A DNA stretch of 64,000 nt from Flavobacteriales bacterium (GTDB lineage Bacteria; Bacteroidota; Bacteroidia; Palsa-965), in contig JBEIPA010000005.1 of assembly GCA_040377305.1 (NCBI GenBank), positions 32,001 through 96,000 on the forward strand, in the 5' to 3' direction. Positions 15,681 through 48,985 of the stretch are shown in pieces. The notes under the pieces were generated by a model. That model was not told the DNA's origin, did not search any database, and saw only the letters and a program-made list of their open reading frames with translations. Numbering within the stretch: the first letter of the stretch is position 1; every line of letters begins with the position of its first letter. Position numbers and translations under genes: made by a program.

Positions 15681-15830
15681 AATCAGTGGTGCATTCCACT
15701 CGGATACAAATATGGCCCCAATAACACAGAAGTGATCGTGTCCGCAGCCCCTTGTGATTCGTAAAAACGCATTCACACAAATAGCTTGGCAAAATTGTAT
15801 CATTGCCGCCGCAATACGTTATCCGTGCAC

Positions 15831-18332: not shown

Positions 18333-18336
18333 CTCG

Positions 18337-18834: not shown

Positions 18835-19881
18835 ATGACTCGCTGGTTCATATTCCTTCTCATTTTTCTGGCCAGCACTTCAGATGCCCAGGAATCACTT
18901 TTGCATCCCCACTATTTTTTAGACACTTGTCCCGATCCGCTCACCAATCACATCGCATCACGCAAATATTTCAAGATCGAAACAGACACAAACGATCGCT
19001 GGACTATAAACGATACAGTGATTGAATACTACGATATCGAAGGGAAACTCACTTCAGCAATTTGTCAGAACGCACGATACACGCAAGACCGTGGATTCAA
19101 GAGCTGGTGCAACTTCACCTATGATCAAAAAGGACGAATTGTTTGCGATAGTTTTTCGGAGTCAGGAAAGCTTGCCGTTACTACTTATGAATATCACGGC
19201 AACCAGGCAATAATCCACAATCCACCTTCTAAGTGGTCCGATATTCTGCCCACGGTGTACATCAACTACGACGACAACTACAATCGCATTTCTCAATATC
19301 GCGTAAACGAGTATGGCGACACGGTCAACTTCTGGGAAGTGAATGGCAATACAACAACTGATCGTTGGATGTCGCGTGAAGATGATGGAACATACACAAT
19401 AAGCAGCACCACCAGTGAAGTGATTGCGCCCCGACAAAAATGGGAGTTCGTGACTATCTATCATCAGGAAGAAGACGACACTTCACACACGGCGTATTTG
19501 TATTCTTATAACTCCACAGGACAACTCATTGAAAATATCTACGTTGGAGAAGAAGAACGACGCGACACCAGTTATTACTACTACACGAACAATCGGCTTA
19601 CGTTTTATGAAAGAAAAGTTTGGGTTCGCGAAGATTGGAAGTTTGTGCAATGGGAGACGTATCAATACAATGATCGTGGTCAGCTCATAGAAAAACGGGA
19701 GTTCGGCGATGGCTCTGAGAATTATCCCACGGTAACCTCATACCGCTACAATGAACGTGGATTGATTGCAGCTATTGACGTGTGGCACCAATATCCTGAC
19801 GATCGGCCCAATTACTATGTGCGAAAAGAGAGATTTGAGTACACGTATTACGCACAAACGGATTCGGAGAAGAAGCAATGA
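18835..19881 (+). CDS. Secreted YD/RHS-like repeat protein (paralog 2)
   Basis: Signal peptide, DTCPDPLTNHIASRK, Y.YN..G repeats. Confidence 0.7.
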   Translation: MTRWFIFLLIFLASTSDAQESLLHPHYFLDTCPDPLTNHIASRKYFKIETDTNDRWTINDTVIEYYDIEGKLTSAICQNARYTQDRGFKSWCNFTYDQKGRIVCDSFSESGKLAVTTYEYHGNQAIIHNPPSKWSDILPTVYINYDDNYNRISQYRVNEYGDTVNFWEVNGNTTTDRWMSREDDGTYTISSTTSEVIAPRQKWEFVTIYHQEEDDTSHTAYLYSYNSTGQLIENIYVGEEERRDTSYYYYTNNRLTFYERKVWVREDWKFVQWETYQYNDRGQLIEKREFGDGSENYPTVTSYRYNERGLIAAIDVWHQYPDDRPNYYVRKERFEYTYYAQTDSEKKQ

Positions 19882-26384: not shown

Positions 26385-26792
26385 TCAAGCCGCTTTCTTC
26401 TTCTTTGTTTTCCTCAATCTATAAGAGCGGTTGAGTACTTCCTGCCGTACATTGAATTTATCAGCGAGCTTGCGAACTACGTCTTTAGGGATCGTCTTTC
26501 TGTAATTCAGAATCTGGGAAATATATCCCTTCGTCACACCAAGTTCAGTTGCCAGATCCACAGCCTTTACGTTTTGTTCTGCCATTAGTACGGCAAGAAC
26601 TTCCACCGGATCCAGCAACGGATAATCACGCTGCTCTTCGTCATACGTTTCAATCAGTAGAGTGAGTAGTGCAATTTCTTCTTCCTGCTCTGCACTTTTT
26701 TTGCCTTTTGAAAATACGATCTTGTCCAGAATGTCGCAATACTTCAGGTACTGTTGATCCGTTCTGATGACTTTATATTTCAATGTTTCCAT
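26385..26792 (-). CDS. higA: HigA-type HTH antitoxin (copy 2)
   Basis: METLKYKVI...LGVTKGYISQILNY; paralog of 17922..18332. Confidence 0.88.
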   Translation of the reverse strand: METLKYKVIRTDQQYLKYCDILDKIVFSKGKKSAEQEEEIALLTLLIETYDEEQRDYPLLDPVEVLAVLMAEQNVKAVDLATELGVTKGYISQILNYRKTIPKDVVRKLADKFNVRQEVLNRSYRLRKTKKKKAA

Positions 26793-26793
26793 T

Positions 26794-26898
26794 TTAATAA
26801 ATTGATACTGTGTACTGCTTACCCTGCTTGCACAATTTCGAATACTCCGCATGAGTTCCGATCCATCGCGTACGCTCCTTGATCAAATGAACCTTCAT
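26794..26898 (-). pseudogene. higB: Internally deleted higB toxin remnant (34-aa in-frame mini-ORF)
   Basis: MKVHLIKERTRWIGTHAEYSKLCKQGKQYTVSIY; C-terminus matches copy 1 WIGTHSDYSKLCKENKQYT. Confidence 0.8.
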
Positions 26899-27720: not shown

Positions 27721-28749
27721 ATGAATCACCTTTGCGTTTTTCTCCTCGTACTCATCACCACGCTTTGTTCCGCACAGCCGCGCCTGACCAGATATTACCA
27801 TGCCATGCACGACACCTGTCCTGATCCACTCAAAAATCACATCAGGCAACGCACGATTTACACGCGCTGCGGAGATGTAGGCTGGTGCCGGGAAGACACA
27901 ACCATTGAAAAATTCGATCGGCAAGGACGCCTCATCAGCATTGAAAAGCACAGCACAGATTCGTACGGCAACCGTTTGCTGCATCACGACTTCACGTACG
28001 ATTCCCTCGGACGCACTGTTCGCGACACCGGAATTTACGATGAGAAAACAGCCTTCTTCCCTGAAGGATATCTCGTCGAATATGAATATCCCGATCGGTA
28101 CACCGCAATTGAACGTGTGTTTTACCTCGGAAAGAAAATCGTGACCACGCGACAATACAACAAGGACTACGTGCTCACGCATCTGCTCACCATCGAGAAC
28201 GGGAGAGACACCGTGCAACATATCTACACGCGTGGCGATACCACCATTACTTTGACCTGGGCAAACTTTCTGCGGTTAACTACACCAGACGCATTCACGC
28301 TTGACGACAGCAGCATCACCATAAAAACGAAAGACCTGTATTATACCTACAGCAGCAAAGCAGACGGGGCTCACTGGCAACCAGTCGCTACGCTCATCCG
28401 ATACGATTCAGAAGGACGAATGATTTACAAGCTGCGTTATCATCACGGAAATATTCTTGCGGATTCCATCGTGCCAACCTACAATGACAAAAACCAACTC
28501 ATCAAAGAAACATGGTACGGTCGCAGTGAGAATGGCGAAAAACATATCCGATATCACATTCAATACACATACAACAAGAATCAATTGATTGAATCGCGCG
28601 AGTGGGAAGAGCATCATCCAGATCAGCTTTCAATTCGTCGGTTTGCCTACAACAGAAAAGGACTGCGCACCAAGTGGGAATTTATCTGGACGAACGAGGA
28701 AGGAAAACAGGAAGTGCACATGACGGAGGTGTGGGAGTTTGAGTATTGA
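27721..28749 (+). CDS. Secreted YD/RHS-like repeat protein (paralog 3)
   Basis: Signal peptide, DTCPDPLKNHIRQR, YD..GR repeats. Confidence 0.7.
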   Translation: MNHLCVFLLVLITTLCSAQPRLTRYYHAMHDTCPDPLKNHIRQRTIYTRCGDVGWCREDTTIEKFDRQGRLISIEKHSTDSYGNRLLHHDFTYDSLGRTVRDTGIYDEKTAFFPEGYLVEYEYPDRYTAIERVFYLGKKIVTTRQYNKDYVLTHLLTIENGRDTVQHIYTRGDTTITLTWANFLRLTTPDAFTLDDSSITIKTKDLYYTYSSKADGAHWQPVATLIRYDSEGRMIYKLRYHHGNILADSIVPTYNDKNQLIKETWYGRSENGEKHIRYHIQYTYNKNQLIESREWEEHHPDQLSIRRFAYNRKGLRTKWEFIWTNEEGKQEVHMTEVWEFEY

Positions 28750-29350: not shown

Positions 29351-29815
29351 ATGTCCGACAACATCCGCAAATACGTTGAAGTCCTCGCAGCTCTGCGCGA
29401 AGATGGAATCCTCACTGATAAAAAAGACTTTACCTGCCAAATAGGCGAATGGTTAGTCGAACAGCTTTACAACGGCAAGCGCGCCGCCAGCACCATTCAA
29501 AAAGGTTGGGACATAAAAGTCGGAGATGAATTCTGGCAAGTGAAGACACATTCAAAGAATGAAGGCAACTCAAGTCGCTTTACCGCTATCAAGAGCGACC
29601 CGGGAATTCAGGTCGACGTGTTAATCATCATCGTGTTTACTTACGACTACAAGTTGAAAGAGTTTTATAAAGTGCCGTGGGCTGTTGCGCAGAAACTGAT
29701 AGAACGCAGAGGCGGACTTGTGCAGAAAGAAGTGTTGAGGTGGAAGGAGATTGAAAAGTATCGGGTGGATACTGGGGAGTTGCCGAGGCAGGAGGTGGTG
29801 GGGTTGTTTAGGTGA
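29351..29815 (+). CDS. Putative PD-(D/E)XK nuclease-fold protein (DUF6998-like)
   Basis: IGEW...QKGWD.....QVKT motif. Confidence 0.6.
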   Translation: MSDNIRKYVEVLAALREDGILTDKKDFTCQIGEWLVEQLYNGKRAASTIQKGWDIKVGDEFWQVKTHSKNEGNSSRFTAIKSDPGIQVDVLIIIVFTYDYKLKEFYKVPWAVAQKLIERRGGLVQKEVLRWKEIEKYRVDTGELPRQEVVGLFR

Positions 29816-29887: not shown

Positions 29888-31018
29888 CTAATTTTCCTGA
29901 ACCAAAGTCAAAACAGATCTATCGAGCTTAACAAGATTGTTCATTGGTTTCGTGAAAGCCGCATGAGCATAATCATATTCATGACCACACAACAACAATA
30001 CCACCGGTCCTCGATTACTCCAGATTTCAGAGTATCGCGTTATTTGTCCCACCGCTCTATCCGTCGAACTCGTGCTTCTATCTCCACGTTTCATCTCGAT
30101 CATTATCGTTTCATCAATCACAATATCCGCCCGGCCCTTGTTGCCATGTTCATTATCACCAATTGGAAATTCAAGTTCGACTTCTGAATGCGGCATTGCG
30201 TTCTTCAAATGACGATATAGCAAATCTTGATACTCATATTCATATTTACATTTTTCAGGATGCCAGTTATGCAATGCACTAATAAAATCATTGAATAATT
30301 TTGAACTGCTTTCCGCCATGGCGTGACTAACGTGTTCATGCTTTTTTGTATTTAAAACTAATTTGTCGCTGCTTGTATTAAGTCGTATCACATCGCGCGA
30401 ACCGTGACCTCTTCTTCTACCGAACAAGTGAATTATATCATTTTTAATCCGTTTCAGAATATTCGGATTCGAACGGTATAGAATTACCATTATTACGACA
30501 CCAGTTATTAGTGGCAACCAAAACCACTTATATGTAAAATTCTCGAAACGGATATAACGAATCATTGTATGCCCGGTGAAACTTTGGATTGGTTTGCGGA
30601 TAAAAATCGAGAGTATTTGAAGAGATTTCCATCCTAAAGCACCAAAAAACAACCACCAACCAAGATTGTAGAGAATTTCATCGCGCGAAGTGGTACGAGT
30701 CGTCTTTGCAGTATCGCGAAAGGTGTAATAATAAGTTTTTAACCTCGAAATTGCACGCTTACCCGTCCAACGTCCAGTGTCATCACGCCAGCCACTCACC
30801 CATGCCAAAATAATAATTGCACCGTAAAACATGAAGAAAAGCGTCGCATGCCATGTTAGTCTATCGTATGGCACCTCTAAATACCAATCTAAAATTGGAG
30901 CAACGATTAGAACGCATACAGCCCCGATAAGAAAATTCTTCATTTTTCTTCCGTACAGATATCGATCAACGTTATCAATTGCATCCCAAAATTTTGATCG
31001 AGCTTGGTTTTGTTCCAT
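29888..31018 (-). CDS. Multi-TM protein with C-terminal PD-(D/E)XK nuclease-like domain
   Basis: About four N-terminal TM segments; EYEYQDLLY, GRADIVID...IEMK, GQITRY. Confidence 0.65.
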   Translation of the reverse strand: MEQNQARSKFWDAIDNVDRYLYGRKMKNFLIGAVCVLIVAPILDWYLEVPYDRLTWHATLFFMFYGAIIILAWVSGWRDDTGRWTGKRAISRLKTYYYTFRDTAKTTRTTSRDEILYNLGWWLFFGALGWKSLQILSIFIRKPIQSFTGHTMIRYIRFENFTYKWFWLPLITGVVIMVILYRSNPNILKRIKNDIIHLFGRRRGHGSRDVIRLNTSSDKLVLNTKKHEHVSHAMAESSSKLFNDFISALHNWHPEKCKYEYEYQDLLYRHLKNAMPHSEVELEFPIGDNEHGNKGRADIVIDETIMIEMKRGDRSTSSTDRAVGQITRYSEIWSNRGPVVLLLCGHEYDYAHAAFTKPMNNLVKLDRSVLTLVQEN

Positions 31019-31348: not shown

Positions 31349-31657
31349 TTAAGGAGGTGGTACACATACCTTGCACGCCTCATATTCTTGTTGCTTTGCC
31401 TCTATAATCGATATTGGAATTCTGCTTTTTTTCAGATATCGGCATTCGCTGCGATGATACTTTTCCCCGGTATTGGTTATGTAAACAACTGTATCTTCCG
31501 ATGAATGAATCTGATCAACAACCTCACCTTTATCCTCACTTATGGTATCATGATTCCCACAAGATGAATTGGAGTTGAGTATCAGAACCAGCAGCGGAAG
31601 ACAAAGAATAGTCGTGATTCGAGACCTGAATCTCATCCAGCAATCAATCCTTTGCAT
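31349..31657 (-). CDS. Small exported protein with Ada-like metal-binding tail
   Basis: VYITNTGEKYHRSECRYLKKS...ACKVC; hydrophobic N-terminus followed by SSC. Confidence 0.65.
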   Translation of the reverse strand: MQRIDCWMRFRSRITTILCLPLLVLILNSNSSCGNHDTISEDKGEVVDQIHSSEDTVVYITNTGEKYHRSECRYLKKSRIPISIIEAKQQEYEACKVCVPPP

Positions 31658-31731: not shown

Positions 31732-32841
31732 CTATTTGATATCCCGAATTTTCCAGGAACCGGCAACATGATCCAGTACGAATTCTTCTTTTGGTTTAAA
31801 ACCCATCAACCGCACATGTTGGCGCAGTTTGTGATTGAGCGAAGAATAGTGAAATGTGTAATACACAATGCGTACGTTATTACGATAGCTGACGTACATG
31901 TGAACAGCGGAGTCTCCATCATTCATGAACACCGTGTCTATTTTAAAAATTACCGCAGTAATATCGCAGAACGCCAACACCTGCTTAAAAGAGCTGTCTG
32001 TTTGTTCGCGCCCTAGACGCCATGTACACGAGGAATCAAGACCGTATGCTCCATGAGGAGAAAGTGCAAGGCTTATCCCGATGTTATTTTCAATGTTGTT
32101 TCGTCCTGAGATATTCTCATATCCATTTGAAAAAATGAAATCGTTTCTTGATTGATAGCTGATGCGCTCGTACTGGTTGTAAATTTTACGGACCGAGTCA
32201 AGCTCAATCTGAGCTCCATCTGTTTCCGCCTGATTTTTCAGCAGTTCATTTTTCAGATCTTGTTCAAACAATTCAATACGGTATTTAACCAACGCCTCCT
32301 GCTCCTCAACAGAAGGCAGGTGTACAGCATCACTGAAAGTAAATTGCGGAATGATTGCAATTGCTCCCAGAGCAAAGAGTACAAGGGCAACAATACATTT
32401 CAGGAAAATCCTGCGCCACTTCTCTTTATAGGCAGCTTTAATTTCAGCATGAAGGCTTTTGACAATGAATGGGACTCCCTTGTCAGTTGTGACCGCATAC
32501 CGATCGATCAGCTCCGGAAAATTTCTCGCAACTTGGCTCGCAACAATGCGATGCCATACAGGGAACGCTAGTTTTCTTCCAGTCTCTTTTTCACGCTGCA
32601 GAATGTAGTTGCGTTCAATGATCGGCCATTTGCGGACATAGTCGGGACTGAGTACCAGCACATAAAATTCCGACTTCTCAAGGCCTTCGTGAACTACTTC
32701 CTCCACCGACTTTCCAATAGTCAATTTATCACCTACAAAATAGACATTCAGACCTTTAGCTGTTAGACCATTCGCAATTCCCACTGCAATATCGGCCTTG
32801 TCTTCAATTGCGTAGGACATGAAAACGTCGTAAGGTCTCAT
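31732..32841 (-). CDS. TIR domain - TM helix - extracytoplasmic domain protein
   Basis: YDVFMSYA.EDK, VLSPDY..KWPIIE, PVWH; TM IFLKCIVALVLFALGAIAII; ~200-aa C-terminal domain. Confidence 0.85.
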   Translation of the reverse strand: MRPYDVFMSYAIEDKADIAVGIANGLTAKGLNVYFVGDKLTIGKSVEEVVHEGLEKSEFYVLVLSPDYVRKWPIIERNYILQREKETGRKLAFPVWHRIVASQVARNFPELIDRYAVTTDKGVPFIVKSLHAEIKAAYKEKWRRIFLKCIVALVLFALGAIAIIPQFTFSDAVHLPSVEEQEALVKYRIELFEQDLKNELLKNQAETDGAQIELDSVRKIYNQYERISYQSRNDFIFSNGYENISGRNNIENNIGISLALSPHGAYGLDSSCTWRLGREQTDSSFKQVLAFCDITAVIFKIDTVFMNDGDSAVHMYVSYRNNVRIVYYTFHYSSLNHKLRQHVRLMGFKPKEEFVLDHVAGSWKIRDIK

Positions 32842-32879
32842 GAATGGAATTTGATAACAATCCGAAATTGAATACCTGA

Positions 32880-33371
32880 TTACTCCTTCAGATCAAATCG
32901 CTTACTCACGTCTTCATAATTATTCCAGTCAAGATCCGGATTAGCAGCCTTCGCCGAAGAAGGTACTACCACCACTTTGCACTTGACGTTCACACCGTAG
33001 TAGGTATTAGGATCGCTACCCGATGAAGGGCCATCATACAACCAGCTAACCTCAACGTTTCCCGGCGTGTATCGAAATCCCATGTAGTAGTTATGAAGTG
33101 TTCCGTAAACAGTATATGGTACAGATGTCCATACATTAGACTGTGTGCTGTAATAAACCATAACACCCGCCGATTCCAGATTGCTCGCCGTGATTTCAGG
33201 AACGGAAAGATTAATATAGTGATGTGGCGTGGACCAATACCAGGATGTAACCGTAAACGTGTGCGATTTCACCTGCGTCGCGGGATCGACCTGAGCGTCT
33301 TCGCAATTGGTCAAAAAAAGACTGATCATGAAGAACAGCAGAGTAAAGGATGTAGTGTAGACTTTTTTCAT
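32880..33371 (-). CDS. Lipoprotein (paralog of 40140..40658)
   Basis: Lipobox LTNC from ATG 33371; C-terminal VVP....ANPDLDWNNYE.VSK. Confidence 0.7.
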   Translation of the reverse strand: MKKVYTTSFTLLFFMISLFLTNCEDAQVDPATQVKSHTFTVTSWYWSTPHHYINLSVPEITASNLESAGVMVYYSTQSNVWTSVPYTVYGTLHNYYMGFRYTPGNVEVSWLYDGPSSGSDPNTYYGVNVKCKVVVVPSSAKAANPDLDWNNYEDVSKRFDLKE

Positions 33372-33381
33372 TTTACTTAGT

Positions 33382-33999
33382 TTAATTATTGGGTGATAAG
33401 GGATGTGTATTTCGTATTGCCGGATCTCTTGGCGCTTCTTCAATCAGTGCAAAGTATCCAAACACAAGAAGGAGCAGCGCGACCACCATAAACAACAGAA
33501 TTTTACCGGTTGATGAGTTCGGCATTTTACGTTGTTCTATTTCCCTTCCTCCTTCCGTCACTTTATTTTTTTCACCTTCTTCGCTTTTTCTTTTATGAAT
33601 TGCTTTCTGCAAATGATCCGCTACCGCATCCAATCCCGTATCAGTAGAAGGAGCATAATGATCAATAAGTTCAGGAAAGTGAAGAGCGACATCGTCGTAT
33701 GAAATATTGTTCCAGACAGGGAATACCAACTTCTTACCTTCTTTCTTCTGACGGTGCAGAATATAATTGCGCTCTATTGCTGGCCACTTGCGCCGGTAGT
33801 TATGACTGACAATCAACACGCAGAAATGAGATTGATCCAGACCATTATTAACAGTATCCGAAATCAAATCACCCGAGGAAAGTTTGTCTCCAACGAAATA
33901 CACATTCAAGCCCGATTTTTTTAACCGCTCTGCTATTCCTGCAGCCGTCGGAAACTTGTCTTCAATTGCGTAAGAGATGAATACATCGTATTTTTTCAT
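33382..33999 (-). CDS. TIR domain protein with C-terminal TM anchor
   Basis: YDVFISYAIEDK, KWPAIERNYIL, PVWN; TM ILLFMVVALLLLVFGYFAL. Confidence 0.85.
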   Translation of the reverse strand: MKKYDVFISYAIEDKFPTAAGIAERLKKSGLNVYFVGDKLSSGDLISDTVNNGLDQSHFCVLIVSHNYRRKWPAIERNYILHRQKKEGKKLVFPVWNNISYDDVALHFPELIDHYAPSTDTGLDAVADHLQKAIHKRKSEEGEKNKVTEGGREIEQRKMPNSSTGKILLFMVVALLLLVFGYFALIEEAPRDPAIRNTHPLSPNN

Positions 34000-34034: not shown

Positions 34035-34565
34035 TCATGCTTCAGCATTACCGCCCAGAACAATTACACCCACACTTTGTGCGTCCTGACCTTCTTCCTG
34101 ATCACGATTAGGTGTGTGCTTATCCATTCGCGCTGGCACAGTTCCATCTGACTCTTTTGCAACCAGATCCAAAACTTTAGCAAGTACAGGATTCAAGCCT
34201 CTTCGTGACGATATCGCATCGCGATCTGATATTGCAGATTTATTTTGCTTCAGCATTTTCAGCGTCACATTGCAAAGCACAAGCAGAATCCTGTTATCAA
34301 TTTTCTTTTTGGACAGTAAAGTTCCCAGTTCTTTTGTCGCCCATTTTTTTGAGATGAACATAGGGCTGATTATCACTATGCCATATCGCGACAGTTTCAA
34401 TGCATTGGTGATAGAGGTTGTAACGGAAGTTTTTTTCTTCAATTCAGCATTCAGGTACCACACACGAAGTCCGCTCTTTTTCAGAGCCAGCACCAGCTCC
34501 TGAACAAATGCGCTATGATCTTCATAGGTGTGAGTAATGAAAACATCATAAAATTGTTGGCGCAT
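34035..34565 (-). CDS. Soluble TIR domain protein
   Basis: YDVFITHTYED, GLRVWY, IISPMFISKKWATKEL. Confidence 0.85.
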   Translation of the reverse strand: MRQQFYDVFITHTYEDHSAFVQELVLALKKSGLRVWYLNAELKKKTSVTTSITNALKLSRYGIVIISPMFISKKWATKELGTLLSKKKIDNRILLVLCNVTLKMLKQNKSAISDRDAISSRRGLNPVLAKVLDLVAKESDGTVPARMDKHTPNRDQEEGQDAQSVGVIVLGGNAEA

Positions 34566-34621: not shown

Positions 34622-35182
34622 TTAGATCTTCCCAAGGCGTTTTAGTTCCCAAAAACATTTTGCTGTTGCTGCAATATCTGCAGCAGCGTTGTGTGCCTGC
34701 GGAAAATCTTTTCCAAAAAGTTTGTAATGCAGTTCGGAAAGCTTTGGCCATTTATTTCCAGGAAGCGCACAAAACGAAGTCGTGCTGTGCATCGTGCAAA
34801 TTTTACTTTTTTCTGCTACCGCGTTTGGAATCTTATTTCGGATAAATTCAGCGCCAACAATTTTTTCATCGAAACTCATATTATGAGCAACGAGATACTC
34901 CGCCTCATGGATCAACGACTGAAATTGCTTGAGGACGCTCAAAAGGACTTTTCCTTCTTTCAGCGCCTTCTCGGTTGAGATTCCGTGAATCCTGGAAGCC
35001 GCCAGGGGAATTGAAAAACCATCAGGTTTTATAATATAATCACCCCCTGATATTTTGTTTCCTTGCTTGTCATAAGCCAAATAAGCTAACTGCACCATTC
35101 GTGGCCAGTTATCCACATCGGTTACAGGTGCTTTCCAGCTGGCAGGTAGTCCAGTTGTTTCTGTGTCAAAAAATAAATACAT
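34622..35182 (-). CDS. DEDDh 3'-5' exonuclease (DnaQ-like)
   Basis: FDTETTG, AHNMSFD, AHNAAADI. Confidence 0.9.
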   Translation of the reverse strand: MYLFFDTETTGLPASWKAPVTDVDNWPRMVQLAYLAYDKQGNKISGGDYIIKPDGFSIPLAASRIHGISTEKALKEGKVLLSVLKQFQSLIHEAEYLVAHNMSFDEKIVGAEFIRNKIPNAVAEKSKICTMHSTTSFCALPGNKWPKLSELHYKLFGKDFPQAHNAAADIAATAKCFWELKRLGKI

Positions 35183-35301: not shown

Positions 35302-36048
35302 TCAGATCATGGAAAATCTCCGATGTACTTCGTCCCGATAACTATCACTGGTAGGAACCTCTGCTTTTCCTATTAAAAGCATATTCCCTTTGATTGCAGT
35401 TACTTTGTCAATATTGACTGCGAACGAACGGTGCACGCGCATAAGAAGCGGGTGGTCGAATTTTTCCTGAAAAGCCTTCAGACTGTACGTTAAAGTAAAC
35501 TTCCGACTCATCGTGTGAATGTGGCAATATGATCCGCCCGCTTCAATCCAAAGAATATCATCCAGATTAATCCGGTAAAAAGTATCATCATCCTTTACAA
35601 GGATGCGATCCTTGAATGGAAAAATGGTTTCTGTAGTTTTCTCATTCTTTACCGGAAGAGCAATTTTCTTACTGCTCGCGTTATAAAACGCAATCTCAAT
35701 TGCTATCAGTAAATCCTGCGCTTTGAATGGCTTCAGCAAAAACGCTGCGGGATGCGTGTGCTTGGCACGCTCAATAGTCTTCTCATCGTGAAGGTCTGTG
35801 AGATAGATAATGGGAATAGAATAATTTGCGTTGATCCGTTCTGAGGTCTGTATCCCATCCATTTCTCCGGAAAGATGAATATCCATCAGGATCACATCCG
35901 GCTGCTTGTTCTTGATTTCTTCAAGCGCCGCCTCACCCGATGTCACTATCTTCTTTACAACATAACCGGCCGTTGTGAGTGTTTCAGCAACCGACTCGGC
36001 TATTATGACTTTATCTTCAACAATTAAAACTGAAACAGGTGCTATCAT
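35302..36048 (-). CDS. LytTR family response regulator
   Basis: REC (VED, ILMDI, LLKPF) plus LytTR (WIEAGGSY, RVHRSFAVN). Confidence 0.93.
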   Translation of the reverse strand: MIAPVSVLIVEDKVIIAESVAETLTTAGYVVKKIVTSGEAALEEIKNKQPDVILMDIHLSGEMDGIQTSERINANYSIPIIYLTDLHDEKTIERAKHTHPAAFLLKPFKAQDLLIAIEIAFYNASSKKIALPVKNEKTTETIFPFKDRILVKDDDTFYRINLDDILWIEAGGSYCHIHTMSRKFTLTYSLKAFQEKFDHPLLMRVHRSFAVNIDKVTAIKGNMLLIGKAEVPTSDSYRDEVHRRFSMI

Positions 36049-38300
36049 TTTACCTCTGGTATTTCCAATGTTACAATTGTGCCGCGCTCATCCGAATGCG
36101 TGAGTAATGTTGCTTTGAGCTCGCGCGAAAATAGCTGAATCAATCGCAACCCGAATGATCTGTTAAGCTCTGCTTTATTACCCGCAGGAATTCCGGTTCC
36201 GTTATCGGAGAAACGAAGCAGCTTGCCGGTGAACTCAATATGAAGTGTTGCATCGTCATTCTTCTTCAGAACATGCTTGAACCAGTTACTGATGACTTCA
36301 TTGCAAACGAAACCAAGACTCAGCGCTTTATCTGCATCCAACTCAATAGATGCAACGTCTTTGCTGATGTTCAGTTCTGCCGCGGCATAACCGTAAGACT
36401 GACAGAGATTATCAATCAATGCCTCAATGTAAGTACGCATGTTGACCTGCGATCCGACATGGTCGCCATAAAGTCCCTGATGAATCAACAACATCGCCGT
36501 TAATCGCTGATCAATCTCCTGCATAAGTTCTGCCATTGCCGGATCCTGGATACGCGATTGCTGAAGTTCCAGCAGGCTGGAAAGCACCTGCAGATTATTT
36601 TTAATACGGTGATGCAACTCACTCATCATCGTTTGCTTCTGCTCTATGATGGTTTGCTTTTGTTCAATAATCACCTTGCTTTGACGGAGTGCAAGACGAC
36701 GTGAACGGATAGCAACAAACAACAATGCTACTACCACAAGAAGCAATGCGGCTCCAACTACGAGCGAGTAAATCAATGTATGCTGCCGCTCAACAGTTGC
36801 TTCCTTCACCTTGTCTCGTTCATTCAGTAAAACGATTTCGTGTTCTTTGCTCTCACTGTCATACTTCACTTCCATTTCTGTAATTGCTTTCTGCTTTTCT
36901 TCATTTAATACGGAGTCCTTCATTGATATGAAAAGGTCCATGTACAGCAAAGCGGAATCTGACTGTCCCTCCGTCAGGAAAATATCTGTTGTAATCTTAT
37001 AGTTATCCAACAGATATTTTTTTGCGCCAATCTTTTCTAACCGGCTACGCGCAGCCTTGAGATGTTCCAATGCATCATGGTTCTTGCCCATCGCCTGATA
37101 TAGCCTGCTCAACTTGTTTAACGTAAGAGCAACTAGCTTGGGGTCATCTGCAATCGATTTTAACTCAAGCGCCTTCTTATAATATGCTTCCGCTTTGTCG
37201 AATTCCTTTTTGTGATAATATGCTTCGCCCAATAGGTCAACAGAACTAGCGATGAAGTCTGAATCACCTAATTCATTCTTAATAAGTAGTGAACGATTTA
37301 AATAACTGATAGCGGTATCGTAGTCTCCCAACAGAATATAAGCCTGCCCAAGATTCGTAAGGGATCCGGCAATCCCTCTTTTATTCCCAATTGAATCACG
37401 AAGATGCAATGAGCGTGTATGATATTCTATTGCCCTTCGCGGCTCCTCTACCTCACAATACAAATTGCCAATGCTATTATAACAGGACGCAAGTTCTTTT
37501 GCATATTGAATCTGCTCGAAAAATGGAGCAGCAAGTAACAGATGATGTAACGCACTATCGTAGGAACCTTGTTCCCGGAATACTATTCCAAGATTAAGAT
37601 TAAAGATTGCGAGATTTGTATCATCGTCAAGTCGCTCGGCAATTACAAGTGCTTTCTGATACGAATGGATACTGCGGAGATAGTCTTCGTTATCAGAATA
37701 AACCATCGCTATGTTGCTATAGCAAGCCGCCATCGCAGAGGAGTCATGAAGAGCTGTGTCGTACTTAATTTCCTCATTCAAGTATTTCAAAGCGTTTGCA
37801 GAATCGCGCTCGATCAGGTAGTAAATACCCAACTCCTGCAGAGCAAAAGCAATGTCCTTGTCGCTTCTGGCGTTTGTGCCGATCAGTAACGCTTCTTTCA
37901 TCGAAGCAACTGCAGAATCAGGTCGCTGTAGTTCGAGGTAACACTTTCCCGTTTTTATCAAGGCCCTTACCTGCTCATGAACAAGATTAGCTTTCTCCGC
38001 CTGATTAGCCGCATGAATGTAATAATAGAGCGCTGAATCAAAATTTGCTTGCGTGCTATAATAAACTCCCAATGCATTCAGCGCTCTGATCCTGTTATTG
38101 ACATCGCCTGATTCAGATGACACCGCTCTTACTTCCTGCACCCACGCTGCAGTGTCAGTTGTGCTATCCAGCACGGGCAGGATCGACTCTGCGGTTTGAT
38201 TGTTGCACGAAAAATAATTCAGGCTAACCAGCAGAAGGAATACAAAACCTCCAGCCGATTTCGCAATCGGAATGCATCTGGTTCGCAGATAGGCAGACAT
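36045..38300 (-). CDS. TPR-repeat sensor histidine kinase (HisKA_2 type)
   Basis: N-terminal signal/TM, many TPRs, TM, ELHHRIKNNLQ, NE.ISN, DNGTG, FGL.LI. Confidence 0.92.
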   Translation of the reverse strand: MSAYLRTRCIPIAKSAGGFVFLLLVSLNYFSCNNQTAESILPVLDSTTDTAAWVQEVRAVSSESGDVNNRIRALNALGVYYSTQANFDSALYYYIHAANQAEKANLVHEQVRALIKTGKCYLELQRPDSAVASMKEALLIGTNARSDKDIAFALQELGIYYLIERDSANALKYLNEEIKYDTALHDSSAMAACYSNIAMVYSDNEDYLRSIHSYQKALVIAERLDDDTNLAIFNLNLGIVFREQGSYDSALHHLLLAAPFFEQIQYAKELASCYNSIGNLYCEVEEPRRAIEYHTRSLHLRDSIGNKRGIAGSLTNLGQAYILLGDYDTAISYLNRSLLIKNELGDSDFIASSVDLLGEAYYHKKEFDKAEAYYKKALELKSIADDPKLVALTLNKLSRLYQAMGKNHDALEHLKAARSRLEKIGAKKYLLDNYKITTDIFLTEGQSDSALLYMDLFISMKDSVLNEEKQKAITEMEVKYDSESKEHEIVLLNERDKVKEATVERQHTLIYSLVVGAALLLVVVALLFVAIRSRRLALRQSKVIIEQKQTIIEQKQTMMSELHHRIKNNLQVLSSLLELQQSRIQDPAMAELMQEIDQRLTAMLLIHQGLYGDHVGSQVNMRTYIEALIDNLCQSYGYAAAELNISKDVASIELDADKALSLGFVCNEVISNWFKHVLKKNDDATLHIEFTGKLLRFSDNGTGIPAGNKAELNRSFGLRLIQLFSRELKATLLTHSDERGTIVTLEIPEVK

Positions 38301-38430: not shown

Positions 38431-38817
38431 CTAGGGTGCAATCAGCGTGTCGATACGCACGACTTCAGAAGAAAACGTAAGGTTCACGTTTTTCGGAAGA
38501 TAGCCCGTTCTTGTGAAGTTCAGTACGTAAGTACCGGATTCAAAACCACCCATGCAATACTCGCCTGATGAATTTGTAGTCGTCTGATTCTGCACAACTC
38601 CACCTTGCAGCAGCTTCACCGTAACATTATTGATCGGTGTTCCGGTTACAGTTAATGCATGACCTCTCACAATGATTGGTTCTTCATCGCAATCCGGTGA
38701 AATCACACCGGTGAAACAGGTTGCACTCTTTGAACACTTTTCAGAAATAGAAGTGGTCGGGTGAAATGTTCCGAAAAGGAATACAATCACGCTTACGACC
38801 TTAATGATATTTGTCAT
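38431..38817 (-). CDS. Small secreted carboxypeptidase-regulatory-like (beta-sandwich) protein
   Basis: Signal peptide; G.PI..V.V.L....TTTNSSGEY....G.Y.L.F...GY. Confidence 0.7.
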   Translation of the reverse strand: MTNIIKVVSVIVFLFGTFHPTTSISEKCSKSATCFTGVISPDCDEEPIIVRGHALTVTGTPINNVTVKLLQGGVVQNQTTTNSSGEYCMGGFESGTYVLNFTRTGYLPKNVNLTFSSEVVRIDTLIAP

Positions 38818-39300
38818 GTTGATTTAGTATTAAGGTTTGACATACCCGGTTGGCCCGTGCGCACCATGCACACTGTCGGTTCCGGATTTTAAGCGGGACA
38901 TTTCTCCGTTCCTGTTGCGCAGACCAGCGATCAGCTTTATCGCTTTTTGCCTATCCCTGAGCAAAGAGTCTTTGCAACAGGAGCGGAGTGTATTTATCAG
39001 TTCAGTATCATGAAACCGGAACTTCGATTTATCCTTTCGGATCGGGTAGTCGCCCGTGCGATTCAGTTCACTTTATCATTTCAACTGCACTGATGTTGTG
39101 ATCAGCAACACGGTAAATTTTTACATAAAGGATAACCGGCCGCGAAACTTTTCCCGGTAACGTCCGGCGATCTTCCGGCGATGAACTAGAATTTCCGGCG
39201 ATGTTGTACTTCCGGCTTTTAGGAAAGAAAAACGAGTGATTCGGAAAATAAATTCGGTTACGGCTTGCCCGAACCATTCATTTGTCGGCGAAATCCGGTT

Positions 39301-40143
39301 ATGAAGTTCAGCAGGGACATATTGAAAAGACTGCTTTCTGAAATTCAGAATGCGATCTATATGGATGTAACCAGTGGAAATGGTGCTGCCGTAAATGCTG
39401 CCTTGGGTGCGAAATACAAAGAATATCGCAAAGTTCCCTATCCGATTACCAATCCGGAATTTGTTTATCGCACCGTCAAGGCAAAACTGAACGATAAGAA
39501 AAGAAAGGGTAAAGAACTTCCATTGCTCACCGGCAACTTTGAAATTTTAGTACATGCTCTGGGTTACAAAGGAATCCCTGACTTCATTAATGGAAAGCAT
39601 CCCGCTGTCAGCACAGATCTGAAGGGTTGTGAAGGTTTCTGGTATAGCTACGTACGTTGCAATTCAGGACAACCTTTTGTGTTGCGCGCTCCAGTGGAGA
39701 TCGTTGTGCGATATCGCGACGTTGAAATGGAATTGAGAGGAAGCCGAAGAACTTTCAAAGGTAAAATGAAGCTCGAAGGTGATTGCATCTTTTGCCTGCT
39801 GGAAAGTGGCGACACAAAAAACCTTCACTTGATATTTAAAACCGGTCTCGAATCAACACCTAATGTCTTACAAGGCGTTTTCTCAGGACTGTCAACTGCC
39901 AATGATCCAATCGCAGGTCGAGAAATATTGATACGTCAACCCGGTATGGATGATTTGAAGAAATTGACAAACGATCGCTTGTCCATTGACAAACTACTCT
40001 CGTCCGGAACAGAAGACGAGAAAATAATTGCACGTTATTTCAGTAACGTCGATGAAAATATTCTTAAAGCCGGGCGCAGCAGCAATTTTGAAATTACAGA
40101 TCTCATTAAACCAGAACAGAAACCTAAAACCAGAAAAAAATGA
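39301..40143 (+). CDS. Hypothetical protein; putative N-terminal helical DNA-binding region and C-terminal beta-rich domain
   Basis: 280 aa from ATG 39301; EILVHALGYKGI.DF helix motif, then GFWYSY...QGVFSG beta-strand pattern. Confidence 0.6.
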   Translation: MKFSRDILKRLLSEIQNAIYMDVTSGNGAAVNAALGAKYKEYRKVPYPITNPEFVYRTVKAKLNDKKRKGKELPLLTGNFEILVHALGYKGIPDFINGKHPAVSTDLKGCEGFWYSYVRCNSGQPFVLRAPVEIVVRYRDVEMELRGSRRTFKGKMKLEGDCIFCLLESGDTKNLHLIFKTGLESTPNVLQGVFSGLSTANDPIAGREILIRQPGMDDLKKLTNDRLSIDKLLSSGTEDEKIIARYFSNVDENILKAGRSSNFEITDLIKPEQKPKTRKK

Positions 40144-40658
40144 AAACAGCTAAAATTTACATCCTGCTTGTCACTATTGTTTCGCTTGTCACTGCCTGCA
40201 AAAAAGAAGGGCCTGCCGGTCCTGCCGGAAAAGATGGAAATGCGAATGTTATTTCATCAAACACGCTTACGCTGAATAATTGGATTACGGTTTACGATGA
40301 TGGCACAGAGTTTACGTACTCTTCGAATCTTACCTGGGGCGAGATCACACAAGAAGTGCGCGATGGTGGATTGCTCATTACATACCTGAAAGACAACACA
40401 ACATCAACGTGGTATGCTATGCCTTATTCATACGCAGGTGACGGTTATGGGTACACATTCAACTACGATTTCAATATCGGTACTGCGAATATCTATTATG
40501 AAGGTTACGACAATTCAGGATCGCCAGGAGCCAATGCGCTGAATGGACTCTTTACAATTCGTTTAGTTGCCGTTCCTCCTGCAATTCGTGAAGCGAATCC
40601 GAATATCGATTGGAACAGCTATGAACAGGTTAGTAAACTGATTACTGCACAGGAGTAA
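40140..40658 (+). CDS. Lipoprotein with short collagen-like linker (paralog of 32880..33371)
   Basis: Lipobox VTAC, GPAGPAGKDGNANV, C-terminal ANPNIDWNSYE.VSK. Confidence 0.75.
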   Translation: MKTAKIYILLVTIVSLVTACKKEGPAGPAGKDGNANVISSNTLTLNNWITVYDDGTEFTYSSNLTWGEITQEVRDGGLLITYLKDNTTSTWYAMPYSYAGDGYGYTFNYDFNIGTANIYYEGYDNSGSPGANALNGLFTIRLVAVPPAIREANPNIDWNSYEQVSKLITAQE

Positions 40659-41683: not shown

Positions 41684-42385
41684 ATGTCAAGATGTACAGC
41701 ACCAGTTCATGGTCATCGCACAGCAAGCGGAGCGGCAAACTGTCCCGCATGCAGCGGCCAGTATGGCAGATATAATTCATACTCATCCTACCCATCATCA
41801 TATTCACCGCCTTCATACAGTTCAGGAAGCCGTGGTAACAGCAGCGGAAACTCCAGAAGTATGAAACCGCGTTGGTCTAAGGCAGGTTCAACACTTTTAT
41901 ACTCGCCTGCTGAAATAAGAACGCTTACACCAGTTCGTGAGAATGTTGAGAAGCGATCGTCCATCCCTGACCTACGCGATGTTTTTCTTTGCCACGCTTG
42001 GGATGATCGAAAAGGAGCTGCCAAAGAGTTGCATGATCTGCTTGAGTCCCGAGGTATCACGGTTTGGTTCAGCGAAAAGGATGTTTCGCTTGGTTCGTCA
42101 TTGCTTCGCGAAATCGATAAAGGGTTGGCAAAGTCTCGAGTAGGAATAGTATTGGTCACACCTTCGTTTCTAAGTCGCGTCATAGGAGAAGGCATAGCCG
42201 ACAAAGAGCTTTCAGCGCTATTAGCACGTGACTTACTCGTTCCTGTTATGCACAATACAACATTTGAAAAATTACGCGAGGTCAGCCCTCTCCTAGGCTC
42301 CAGAAGCGGCCTAAGCACACTGGAGGAATCAATGGCAGACGTTGCAGCCAAATTAGCGGAACTAGTATCAGTACAGTCTCAGTGA
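41684..42385 (+). CDS. TIR domain protein with N-terminal Cys/His motif and Ser-rich linker
   Basis: CTAPVHGH...CPAC; RDVFLCHAWDDR, VWFSEKD, LVTPSFL, ADKELSALL. Confidence 0.85.
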   Translation: MSRCTAPVHGHRTASGAANCPACSGQYGRYNSYSSYPSSYSPPSYSSGSRGNSSGNSRSMKPRWSKAGSTLLYSPAEIRTLTPVRENVEKRSSIPDLRDVFLCHAWDDRKGAAKELHDLLESRGITVWFSEKDVSLGSSLLREIDKGLAKSRVGIVLVTPSFLSRVIGEGIADKELSALLARDLLVPVMHNTTFEKLREVSPLLGSRSGLSTLEESMADVAAKLAELVSVQSQ

Positions 42386-44563: not shown

Positions 44564-44767
44564 GTCGAGGTTCTGATCATCATCGTGTTTACTTACGACT
44601 ACAAGTTGAAGGAATTTTATAAAGTGCCGTGGAGTGTTGCGCAAAAATTGATTGAACGCAGAGGCGGACTTGTTCAGAAAGAAGTGCTGAGGTGGAAGAC
44701 GATTGAAAAGTATCGGGAGGAGATTGAGGCGTTGCCGCGGCAGGAGGTGGTGGGGTTGTTTAGGTGA
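44564..44767 (+). pseudogene. 3' 204-bp copy of gene 29351..29815 (diverged direct repeat)
   Basis: Ungapped match to 29612-29815 with 21 mismatches by manual count. Confidence 0.85.
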
Positions 44768-45900: not shown

Positions 45901-47784
45901 ATGGAATCTTTGGACGAGAAAAAAACTCTCTCAAAATCATATTGGGACTACTGCTTCGACCTATTCACCCAACCAGTACTTAGTGACTTTTTTCGTTTAG
46001 CGAAAAAGAAGTCCAGCGCAAGAAAAGATGCCAAACTTTCTTATAAATCTTTTGAAATAAAGAACTTCAAAGGAATTGATCATGTTTCGATTGATTTGAT
46101 AAAAAATAATCTGGTGCTATTACTCGGGTTGAATGAGTCGGGTAAATCAACGATTTTGAAGGCGATTGAAGCCTTCGACTACTTAAACGATCCAACCCAA
46201 GAAGATGATGAAAAGTACTTTCAAAATATTCGAAATAAATCACAAGTGAGTTCCAATAAGGACGTTGTGTTAACAGCCCGAATATCAATTGAACAACCCA
46301 TACCCGAGTTGCAAACTCAAAAAAATGCAGAAAGGCAATTATCGAATGATGAGAAAATTGAAATTAATGAATTTATTAATAAGATAAATTCTGATGGTGA
46401 AGTTTATATTTCCCGCGTGTTTCCTTTTAAGAGCGGTAAACTGTCCAAGTATCATTATCGAATTGAATCAAAACATCCGTTCTCGAATAATCTTCTATCG
46501 CGACAAGTGGCTGCGGAAATTGTGTCCATTTGCCCTTATATTATTTATTTCGAAGATTTCAAAGATCGGATTCCCGAAAAAATATTTGTAACAGAAAAGT
46601 CGGATGCATTTGACAGCTCGTGGTTTGATATCATTAATGGACTTTTCTTTAATACCGACGAGGAGTTGAGCATCGAGGAATTCAAAAAGTATTACTCCAA
46701 AAACAATAAGCGACCAGACGATGCACGGACAGTGCTCAAGCGTGTCAACAAAAAACTGAACGAAACATTTACAAAAAAGTGGAAAGACCTATCTGGGGTA
46801 AAAGATATTGATAGCGCAGAGTTAATTTACGAAAACAAACAGAGTCCGCATTTCATTCTAAAGATCACAGATTCCGACGGAACCACTTATTCAATAGACG
46901 AGCGAAGCAGGGGTGCACTATGGTATTTATCCTTTCTAATGAAGACTGAATTTAGAAGTAAACGGTTACGTAATGACCATGGCAAGCCAGTCTTCCTTAT
47001 CGATGAACCCGCTTCCAACTTGCACTCTAATGCTCAGCAAAATATGACTGAAGACTTCGGAAGGCTAGCAGAGAATACTTCCCTAATTTATACCACACAC
47101 AGTCAGTATTTGATTTCATTGCATAACATTAAGAACACTTATATTGTTGAACGAAAAAATGGGTTAGTAGTTGCCAGTCGATGGAGTGAATTTATTCAAC
47201 GGCCAGAAAATAAACGACCTGTCTCCTACTATCAGCCTCTTGCCAATCTGTTGAATATAATACCCACAACATTTGATGTTCCATGGAAAAAATGCTTGAT
47301 AACTGAAGGCCCTTCTGATAGACATATACTGTATACTATGTATTATGCTATCTATGCGGTCAAACCTGATTTCGTCATATACCCTGGAACCTCAGCCAAT
47401 GACTTGGATAATTTAATAGCGTTGAACATTGGATGGAATGCAGATTTTAGGATTGTTCTAGACTCAGATAAGAAGGGCATTGAACAACAAAAAAGATATA
47501 TTGATAAATTTAATTTGAGTGATAATCAAATAATGACTCTGCCCTTACAGAACGGCGACATTGAAGACTGTTTCGAGGAAAGCGAGCTCAACGATGTTTA
47601 TTCCTTGGCGGTGGGGAACGATCCTAAGACCCAGTTATCAAAAAAAGAAATATCCGCTGCTTTTTCAATTTTATCAAGCCGTGAAGATTTGCTTAAGAAG
47701 ATGGTCCGCCAAAACGTGTTTCACGTTAAAACCTTAAACATTTTCAAAACTATTTTCAATACACTTAGCAATCACAAAAAATAA
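45901..47784 (+). CDS. OLD-family-like ATP-dependent nuclease (ABC ATPase + TOPRIM)
   Basis: IKNFKGI, GLNESGKST, RSRG, LIDEPASNLH, TTHS, TOPRIM TEGPSD and LDSD..G, DIED. Confidence 0.85.
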   Translation: MESLDEKKTLSKSYWDYCFDLFTQPVLSDFFRLAKKKSSARKDAKLSYKSFEIKNFKGIDHVSIDLIKNNLVLLLGLNESGKSTILKAIEAFDYLNDPTQEDDEKYFQNIRNKSQVSSNKDVVLTARISIEQPIPELQTQKNAERQLSNDEKIEINEFINKINSDGEVYISRVFPFKSGKLSKYHYRIESKHPFSNNLLSRQVAAEIVSICPYIIYFEDFKDRIPEKIFVTEKSDAFDSSWFDIINGLFFNTDEELSIEEFKKYYSKNNKRPDDARTVLKRVNKKLNETFTKKWKDLSGVKDIDSAELIYENKQSPHFILKITDSDGTTYSIDERSRGALWYLSFLMKTEFRSKRLRNDHGKPVFLIDEPASNLHSNAQQNMTEDFGRLAENTSLIYTTHSQYLISLHNIKNTYIVERKNGLVVASRWSEFIQRPENKRPVSYYQPLANLLNIIPTTFDVPWKKCLITEGPSDRHILYTMYYAIYAVKPDFVIYPGTSANDLDNLIALNIGWNADFRIVLDSDKKGIEQQKRYIDKFNLSDNQIMTLPLQNGDIEDCFEESELNDVYSLAVGNDPKTQLSKKEISAAFSILSSREDLLKKMVRQNVFHVKTLNIFKTIFNTLSNHKK

Positions 47785-47795
47785 CATTTTAACCC

Positions 47796-48974: not shown

Positions 48975-48985
48975 TAAACTTTAGT

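What the first reader, a model, noticed from the sequence alone, without database searches (positions are those of the whole stretch)
31732..33999. Two paralogous membrane-anchored TIRs, one with a ~200-aa ectodomain, flanking a lipoprotein
Seen: the TIR domains share YDVF.SYAIEDK, GLNVYFVGDKL, KWP.IERNYIL and FPELID.YA, so they arose by duplication. One ends shortly after its TM helix; the other continues into an unrecognised domain. Inference: a receptor and co-receptor pair with cytoplasmic TIRs, and the lipoprotein as outer partner or inhibitor.
Basis: partly seen in the sequence, partly recalled or inferred. Interest (0 to 1): 0.7.

Follow-up and report, generated by a model that had tools for sequence, protein, structure and literature searches.

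The report
Bacterial Toll-like membrane receptor cassette
These genes encode two membrane-anchored TIR proteins with intact NAD-cutting motifs. One carries an unclassified, likely periplasmic sensor domain and the other likely uses the neighbouring lipoprotein as its sensor, so the cassette would be a bacterial counterpart of animal Toll-like receptor signalling, which I did not find described.

Summary

The ectodomain defines an unnamed family (196 clusters) with a confident NTF2-like model and no clear solved match. In all 109 TIR-TM-ectodomain clusters examined the catalytic Glu is kept, and the charge bias puts the TIR inside. Other members join the ectodomain to a helical HTH-like domain or a short N/G/I/V-rich motif instead of TIR, as expected of a sensor.

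The receptor/co-receptor trio is not supported. The ectodomain protein has no second TIR nearby in 7 of 19 TIR-type loci. The lipoprotein follows the TM-short gene in 11 genomes, 8 of them with a motif in place of the TIR.

In relatives, soluble TIRs end in amyloid-like motifs that match the N-terminus of an inactive STAND or of the motif-TM protein (own partner best in 7 of 7 pairs). Here that motif is truncated and no STAND was found.

Best reading: two parallel envelope receptors that switch on TIR NADases, probably for defence. No function has been tested.

The parts
31732..32841 (-). TIR-TM-ectodomain protein P0001 (369 aa): TIR aa 1-135 with W72-x3-E76, TM helix aa 146-164 (32350-32406), ectodomain aa 170-369 (31735-32334)
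   Evidence: E76 kept in 109 of 109 homologous clusters; ectodomain model pLDDT 96.9
32880..33371 (-). Lipoprotein P0002 (163 aa; Cys23 at 33305), predicted beta-sandwich, member of the clade that follows TM-short genes
   Evidence: (pLDDT 91.2)
33382..33999 (-). TIR-TM-short protein P0003 (205 aa): TIR with W-x3-E, TM aa 168-186, conserved 19-aa outer tail with two prolines
   Evidence: P203 invariant in 13 of 13, P193 in at least 90%
34035..34565 (-). Soluble TIR P0004 (176 aa) with W-x3-E; the tail keeps only a remnant (GVIVLGG) of the C-terminal motif seen in relatives
34622..35182 (-). DEDDh exonuclease (RNase_T family); accessory, also near the cassette in G029, G308 and G360
35302..36048 (-). 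REC-LytTR response regulator, core of the cassette
36045..38300 (-). TPR-sensor HisKA_2 histidine kinase, core of the cassette
38431..38817 (-). Small secreted CarboxypepD_reg-like protein, core of the cassette
39265..40143 (+). Divergent protein (likely start ATG 39301): helical N-terminal domain (HTH-like by recall) plus beta-rich C-terminal domain; core of TIR-type cassettes; no family hit
31349..31657 (-). Small lipoprotein-like protein with a His/Cys metal-finger-like motif (YITxTGxKYH..C..C..C); frequent accessory just downstream of the ectodomain gene
40140..40658 (+). Distant paralogue of the lipoprotein (26% identity), outside the TM-short-linked clade

Best explanation
The locus likely encodes two parallel inner-membrane receptors whose cytoplasmic TIR domains are predicted to cut NAD+ when a periplasmic cue clusters them: a one-piece receptor (TIR-TM-ectodomain) and a likely split receptor (TIR-TM-short plus the lipoprotein). 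Shown: gene order, intact W-x3-E motifs, single TM helices with inside-positive charge, the conserved kinase/LytTR context, and the separate travel of the two modules. Inferred: (1) the NTF2-like ectodomain binds an envelope ligand or peptide and oligomerises; (2) this drives TIR assembly of the AbTir type and NAD+ cleavage; (3) the lipoprotein does the same job for the short protein through its conserved tail; (4) the soluble TIR joins the assembly and, in relatives, passes the signal through an amyloid-like motif to an inactive STAND protein, an arm that is degenerate in this genome; (5) the outcome is a defence or danger response (NAD+ loss or an ADP-ribose-type signal), with the two-component pair setting expression.
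For: Catalytic Glu in 109 of 109 and Trp in 108 of 109 TIR-TM-ectodomain clusters. The closest solved TIRs are PdTIR 3h16, a TIR protein 7uxr, TcpB 4lqc, 7uwg and AbTIR 8g83 (E 1e-16 to 1e-15). PMC11374754 (passages read) states that most bacterial TIR NADases depend on the WxxxE glutamate and that AbTir forms a filament with an NAD+ analogue. Topology: TM score at least 1.6 in 100 of 109; mean 4.8 K/R before versus 1.6 after; no further TM in 109 of 109. Bacteroidota O-glycosylation sequons occur 115 times in the ectodomain against 50 expected from shuffles (motif from PMC8698959). Output swapping: 21 of the 150 listed clusters lack TIR and carry 1 or mostly about 3 TMs after a short motif or a helical domain. 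A LytTR gene lies in the cassette in 19 of 19 genomes whose contig reaches it (plus window). Lipoprotein directly after a TM-short gene in 11 genomes. 7 of 12 P0003 homologues share a longest-contig length with a lipoprotein homologue. Motif pairs: the own partner scores highest in 7 of 7 rows, 1 of 5040 permutations. Patchy spread (9 of 35 in the order; 12 of 401 in the class sample) and defence-type neighbours in the window.
Against: No ligand, activity or phenotype is known. The ectodomain fold match is only middling (Z 6.9, rmsd 5.1, 103 aligned), within the range of common arrangements. The sequon excess is also 1.5-fold in the TIR itself (49 versus 33). Many Bacteroidetes lipoproteins with acidic N-termini go to the cell surface (PMC5080379, abstract). 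P0002 begins C-E-D-A-Q-V and G013's begins C-N-K-D-E-T, so the lipoprotein may be out of reach of a 19-residue inner-membrane tail. The lipoprotein/TM-short link lies in one clade, so it is one origin kept for long, not many independent ones. One close lipoprotein (G030) has no TM-short gene upstream. Motif pairs were picked by eye and the genomes are related. In this genome the soluble TIR's tail scores at background (15-19 versus mean 17) and no STAND homologue was found. Tight linkage to a two-component pair and a putative regulator fits ordinary signalling as well as defence.
Confidence: 0.5

Rival explanations
1. Housekeeping-type signal transduction rather than defence. The receptor TIR makes a small ADP-ribose-type messenger that the beta-rich domain of the divergent 39265-40143 protein binds, and its helical N-terminal domain then changes transcription together with LytTR.
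For: The divergent gene is present in 15 of 15 TIR-type loci with enough DNA (plus window). Full-length close homologues were found in 3 of 251 class genomes, and all 3 hold the TIR-ectodomain gene. In the 3 loci where the ectodomain protein has no TIR, only the helical domain is kept, joined to a motif. In 5 listed clusters the helical domain is fused to the ectodomain protein itself (E 3e-11 to 9e-9).
Against: No family or structure hit for the protein; 'HTH' and 'ligand-binding barrel' are recalled resemblances, not results. Distant homologues occur with no TIR within about 1.5 kb. STAND and amyloid-like partners are typical of immunity loci.
Confidence: 0.25
2. One reading: the long and short TIR proteins form one receptor/co-receptor complex and the lipoprotein is its outer partner or inhibitor.
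For: The genes are 10 and 38 nt apart. The TIRs are 54% identical and of one clade, so they could co-assemble. All three genes are together in G000, G008 and G013. Two P0003 homologues share contig lengths with ectodomain homologues. The best fold match, the ARC6 intermembrane domain, was solved in complex with PDV2 (entry title); that it binds PDV2's short C-terminal peptide is recalled.
Against: The ectodomain protein has no other TIR nearby in 7 of 19 loci and has the close lipoprotein beside it in only 4 of 22. TM-short plus lipoprotein occurs in G016, G025, G026 and G027, where the ectodomain profile found nothing. In G008 and G013 the short protein's TIR is of the other clade.
Confidence: 0.15
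3. The membrane anchor and outer domain are only a tether or assembly scaffold (as VirB8 or ARC6 are), keeping a constitutive or cytoplasmically triggered TIR at the membrane; nothing is sensed outside.
For: The nearest folds are structural periplasmic or intermembrane domains (ARC6 Z 6.9, VirB8-like PrgL Z 6.7). Few ectodomain positions are conserved (4 nearly invariant columns in 123 sequences).
Against: The ectodomain is kept at near-constant length in the 150 listed clusters and is re-wired to three kinds of cytoplasmic module, which is the pattern of a sensor. No secretion or division genes were seen in the cassette.
Confidence: 0.1

Closest known systems
Bacterial TIR NADases of the AbTir / TcpB / PdTIR / TcpC group
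   Same: Closest solved sequences; same SxAxEDK and W-x3-E motifs; activity tied to the glutamate and to assembly (PMC11374754, passages).
   Different: Here the TIR is N-terminal, followed by a TM helix and an outer domain or tail, inside a conserved two-component cassette.
Animal Toll-like/IL-1 receptors with the TRIF adaptor (TIR plus RHIM amyloid motif)
   Same: Logic: outer sensor, single TM and cytoplasmic TIR, then a soluble TIR carrying a short amyloid-like motif matched by a downstream protein. TRIF as a RHIM protein was seen in a search listing only (PMC9444067 abstract start); the rest is recalled.
   Different: Reverse polarity (type II, TIR first), no LRR or Ig ectodomain, catalytic Glu kept, no RHIM Pfam hit. 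An analogy, not homology of the receptor.
BASS amyloid signalling pairs (Dyrka et al., bioRxiv 10.1101/2020.01.06.895854)
   Same: C-terminal motif on an effector matched by the N-terminal motif of an adjacent NLR-like gene; TIR2-BASS pairs are mentioned; motifs are about 25 aa and rich in Q, N, G, V, I (Results read in full).
   Different: The partner here is a STAND-like protein with a degenerate Walker A, not NB-ARC/NACHT by Pfam. The motif also sits on membrane proteins and on a helical domain; the paper's main text has no occurrence of 'transmembrane'. In this window the motif is truncated.
[quoted passage not shown]
   Same: TIR effectors, inactive STAND partners and coupling by a shared homotypic module (passages).
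   Different: No MoxR/vWA or GTPase core recognised in the loci (judged from ORF listings, not a family scan of every ORF); 'LytTR' has 0 occurrences in PMC7159879 and 'lipoprotein' 0 in PMC8195603.
Thoeris (ThsB TIR plus ThsA)
   Same: Weak TIR-domain matches to ThsB models (E 1e-13 to 1e-17).
   Different: Matches cover only the TIR; the NCBIfam ThcB4 score is 14 against a cut-off of 220; no ThsA-type gene recognised in the cassette.
ARC6/PARC6 intermembrane-space domain and VirB8 (NTF2-like)
   Same: Best structural matches of the ectodomain (Z 6.9, rmsd 5.1, 103 aligned; Z 6.7, rmsd 5.7, 92 aligned); single-pass proteins with an outer NTF2-like domain (recalled).
   Different: Middling Z, 5-9% identity, no Foldseek hit at E 0.001 or better; the ectodomain is longer (200 aa).

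Membership tests
TIR domain (Pfam TIR_2) | Score above gathering cut-off | tested here: met
   51.4, 58.6 and 56 bits versus cut-off 28 for P0001, P0003 and P0004
Bacterial TIR NADases (AbTir group) | Catalytic W-x3-E motif | tested here: met
   Present in all three window proteins; E in 109 of 109 homologues
Bacterial TIR NADases (AbTir group) | NAD+ cleavage and assembly-dependent activation | not testable with these tools
   Needs an enzyme assay
Toll-like / IL-1 receptors | Single TM between outer domain and cytoplasmic TIR | tested here: met
   Hydropathy and charge bias; prediction only
Toll-like / IL-1 receptors | N-terminal LRR or Ig ectodomain with C-terminal TIR | tested here: not met
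   TIR is N-terminal; the ectodomain model is alpha+beta with a long curved sheet
BASS amyloid signalling pair | Matching motif at effector C-terminus and adjacent NLR-like N-terminus, in relatives | tested here: met
   4 TIR/STAND pairs (G020, G023, G308, G502), scores 47-65 versus background maximum 41; own partner best; 1 of 24 permutations
BASS amyloid signalling pair | The same, in this window | tested here: not met
   P0004 tail scores 15-19, at background; no STAND homologue found in G000
BASS amyloid signalling pair | Partner is an NB-ARC/NACHT protein; motif belongs to BASS1-10 | tested here: inconclusive
   Only sub-threshold nSTAND hits and no RHIM hit; BASS profiles are in supplements that are closed
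BASS amyloid signalling pair | Fibril formation and cross-seeding | not testable with these tools
   Needs experiment; only composition was checked (N+G+V+I+Q 0.43-0.67 in the 7 tails versus background mean 0.30)
Thoeris | Full-length ThsB model match plus a ThsA partner | tested here: not met
   TIR-only matches, far below the ThcB4 cut-off; no ThsA among the window proteins scanned
NTF2-like (ARC6 IMS / VirB8) | Structural match well above unrelated rows | tested here: inconclusive
   Z 6.9 and 6.7, next rows 5.8; no Foldseek hit at E 0.001
Bacteroidetes surface lipoprotein (LES) | K-(D/E)2 or Q-A-(D/E)2 after the lipidated Cys | tested here: inconclusive
   P0002 C-E-D-A-Q-V is acidic but not an exact match; G013 C-N-K-D-E matches

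The most novel reading that the evidence does not exclude
Bacteroidota carry a complete Toll-like pathway built from their own parts. A single-pass receptor with a new NTF2-like ectodomain, or a lipoprotein-coupled split receptor, nucleates TIR filaments at the inner membrane. A soluble TIR adaptor with a RHIM-like amyloid tail relays the signal to a STAND protein. In other versions the amyloid motif is attached directly to membrane receptors and to a transcription factor, which would be the first bacterial transmembrane signalling through an amyloid motif and a one-to-one parallel of TLR-TRIF-RHIM signalling.
Probability: 0.25. Interest if true: 0.92.

Novelty: new variant of a known kind. 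Interest (0 to 1): 0.72.

Why it matters
Most studied bacterial TIR defences respond to cues inside the cell (recalled). A conserved family of TIR proteins with an outer sensor domain would show that bacteria can trigger TIR enzymes across the membrane, as animals do. It offers a small, testable system: in the minimal cassette a single 370-aa receptor is the only TIR gene. The swapping of TIR, amyloid-like motif and helical domain under the same sensor makes it directly testable whether amyloid motifs can carry signals from membrane receptors in bacteria.

Tried and rejected
Complex prediction of the lipoprotein with P0003 aa 166-205 gave no verdict (scores 0.01 and 0.00, controls not folded); it is no evidence either way. 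The ectodomain-lipoprotein pair was never folded.

Fold searches gave no clear match for the lipoprotein (best Z 5.4; no Foldseek hit at E 0.001) or for the ectodomain. The Atlas did not hold the ectodomain sequences; for a lipoprotein homologue it returned only unnamed Bacteroidota clusters and one collagen-repeat cluster.

Pattern scans of genome contigs found no relative, and of metagenome contigs only 2 loci. No ectodomain match in 78 genomes of another order or in the plasmid collection. Promoter and terminator counts were within about one standard deviation of the shuffles. No RNA holder was listed.

Literature searches that found no description of this cassette. The library lacks most subscription papers, and bioRxiv supplements (BASS Fig. 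S5, Table S2) were closed and could hold such pairs. One paper fetched was the wrong one and PMC12419801 was irrelevant.

Rejected: Thoeris membership; a recent in-locus duplication (54% identity, and a separate family of 12 P0003 homologues exists); catalytically dead adaptor TIRs (Glu kept). Trees used the first 140 aa of 36 TIRs and the last 135 aa of 52 lipoproteins (rows of 120 aa or fewer left out).
Full report
Observation. The window comes from a 5.2-Mb, 99.99% complete genome. Homologues are labelled Bacteroidia/Bacteroidota by their sources. Four of the genome's five TIR_2 matches lie in this window. Gaps along the minus-strand run are -4, 119, 56, 35, 10, 38 and 74 nt, which fits one operon.

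The ectodomain family. A profile of 10 ectodomains found 196 clusters at 50% identity, of which the best 150 were listed. Of the 150, 109 are TIR-TM-ectodomain, 1 is a longer TIR form, 21 lack a TIR and 19 are short or partial. Among the 109: Glu76 is kept in 109, Trp72 in 108; the TM score is at least 1.6 in 100; K/R residues are more numerous before the helix in 98 (equal in 8); and none has a further TM. The TIR-less forms mostly carry about three TM helices and a weak CarboxypepD-like segment before the ectodomain. They start either with a short motif such as GKYIAGRDI or with a helical domain related to the N-terminus of the divergent gene. One or three helices after a cytoplasmic N-terminus leaves the domain outside in each case. 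O-glycosylation sequons are 2.3-fold over shuffles in the ectodomain and 1.5-fold in the TIR, which is weak extra support. The AlphaFold model is confident (pLDDT 96.9, pTM 0.91). Foldseek gave only sub-threshold, mostly NTF2-like rows, and VIA-align ranked the ARC6 intermembrane domain (Z 6.9, rmsd 5.1, 103 aligned) and a VirB8 domain (Z 6.7) first. That suggests but does not establish an NTF2-like fold.

Conserved context. The ectodomain was found in 9 of 35 genomes of the order, 12 of 401 of the class sample, 7 of 15 of another family, 3 of 119 and 0 of 78: 22 distinct genomes, all read. A LytTR gene lies in the cassette in 19 of 19 genomes whose contig reaches it, with the kinase and secreted protein in 18 (G334 is cut inside LytTR). 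G001, G013 and G020 are cut, but metagenome contig L084, which resembles G013, shows the full cassette. The divergent gene is present in 15 of 15 TIR-type loci with enough DNA. In 7 of 19 TIR-type loci (G152, G187, G334, G360, G410, G425, G522) no other TIR lies in the fetched stretch, so the ectodomain protein appears able to work alone. The counts include G012, which is marked unpublished; it contributes one locus and rows of two alignments.

The lipoprotein belongs with the short protein. The lipoprotein family is common (50 of 301 class genomes). Of 32 ORFs read, 5 had a short TM gene directly upstream. With G008, G013 and G368 these fall in one clade (support 96/85), where 8 of 8 genomic members with upstream DNA have it. 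As a fresh test, 3 of 5 newly found homologues had it too (G016, G020, G025); G030 did not, nor did a distant G023 copy. That makes 11 genomes. In 3 the short protein bears a TIR (G000, G008, G013); in 8 it bears only an N/V/I-rich motif before the helix. P0003 has its own family of 12 homologues with a conserved outer tail, and 7 of the 12 share a longest-contig length with a lipoprotein homologue, an indirect sign of adjacency. A tree puts P0003's TIR in the receptor clade (100/99) but the TIRs of the G008 and G013 short proteins among the soluble ones, so the cytoplasmic module has been swapped on a constant TM-tail-lipoprotein unit. The close lipoprotein lies beside the ectodomain gene in only 4 of 22 loci, and the short-TM/lipoprotein pair occurs in four genomes of the order without an ectodomain match. 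The lipoprotein model is a beta-sandwich (pLDDT 91.2). Its location is open: an acidic N-terminus may send it to the surface (PMC5080379, abstract only).

Amyloid-like coupling in relatives. In G020, G023, G308 and G502 the soluble TIR ends in a G/N/I/V-rich motif, and the adjacent 864-895-aa STAND-like protein begins with a matching one; its Walker A reads GGxGFDK (three sequences aligned). In G368 the TIR's tail matches the motif-TM protein in front of the lipoprotein. In G382 and G305 the helical-domain protein's tail weakly matches the start of the 3-TM ectodomain protein. The own partner scored highest in 7 of 7 rows (1 of 5040 permutations). The five TIR pairs scored 43-65 against a background maximum of 41; the two others scored only 29-31. 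Pairs were chosen by eye, G249's pair (similar to G382's) was not scored, and the genomes are related. This mirrors BASS pairs, for which TIR2 versions are mentioned (bioRxiv 10.1101/2020.01.06.895854; abstract, Results and term passages read; supplements not seen). In the window the tail stops after GVIVLGG, scores at background, and no STAND homologue was found, so this arm is degenerate here.

Mechanism. The nearest solved TIRs are PdTIR, TcpB and AbTIR, whose activity depends on the WxxxE glutamate and goes with filament assembly (PMC11374754, passages). The simplest model is two receptors in parallel, each clustering TIRs at the inner membrane after an envelope cue, with the soluble TIR amplifying or relaying. 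Patchy distribution and neighbours such as a PD-(D/E)XK-like nuclease (sub-threshold), a ThsB-model TIR and a SMC/AAA_15-type ATPase favour defence (0.5). The fixed link to the divergent gene, whose close homologues occurred in 3 of 251 genomes, all with the receptor, leaves a messenger-to-transcription role open (0.25). The trio model gets 0.15 and a mere tether 0.1. Ligand, product and phenotype are all inferred.

Novelty. No Pfam, NCBIfam or PADLOC model covers the ectodomain, the lipoprotein or the divergent protein. Eight literature searches on the system and passages of two Aravind-group papers showed no description of the cassette, within the limits of the library. An earlier unchecked note of this scan describes a TIR-CHASE2 membrane receptor with a lipoprotein partner in another genome, an analogous wiring I did not test. 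The parts (TIR NADase, motif pairs, inactive STAND) are known kinds; their assembly under membrane receptors is what is new. Verdict: new variant of a known kind, interest 0.72.

Noticed in passing
window 41684-42385 (+): A fourth TIR protein with a Cys/His N-terminus matches PADLOC ThsB model PDLC00424 over its full length (E 2e-116); no ThsA was recognised next to it.
   Followed up: partly
window 39265-40143 (+): Unclassified helical plus beta-rich protein that tracks the TIR-type cassette; distant homologues lie beside a LytTR gene (G133) or a SusC-like gene (G255, label by eye).
   Followed up: partly
window 45901-51873: Low-GC stretch (36-38%) before rpoC holding a SMC/AAA_15-type ATPase, an unknown 392-aa protein, a DUF2290 protein and a UvrD-like helicase; looks like a defence island.
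   Followed up: no
window 29351-29815 and 44585-44767 (+): The short ORF at 44585 nearly repeats the C-terminal 60 residues of the DUF6998-like ORF at 29351, on either side of the cassette; possibly a trace of insertion or duplication.
   Followed up: no
window 29888-31018 (-): Membrane protein with a C-terminal PD-(D/E)XK-like domain (sub-threshold hits), 330 nt downstream of the cassette; not found in the relatives' loci.
   Followed up: no
window 17922-18392 and 26385-26852 (-); 15786-16856, 18835-19881, 27721-28749 (+): Two similar HigA-like HTH antitoxin genes (label by eye; HTH_3 hit for the second) and three paralogous secreted YD-repeat-like proteins.
   Followed up: no
L012 7412-8509 (G020): A second, tandem copy of the TIR-TM-ectodomain gene interrupted by one TAG stop.
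   Followed up: no
L039-L047 and L092-L095: In the outer families the histidine kinase gene is inverted relative to the secreted-protein and LytTR genes, while in the window's family all three are collinear.
   Followed up: no
L090 6345-10572 (G341): A TIR-like protein (by eye) ending SIQIQGDLNSDGSISIS precedes a STAND homologue carrying FQYQGNMHAAGDISIE near its start: another likely motif pair, in a genome without the ectodomain.
   Followed up: partly
L045, L046, L047 (G360, G187, G152): The cassette sits among integrase- and relaxase-like genes (labels by eye), suggesting carriage on integrative elements.
   Followed up: no
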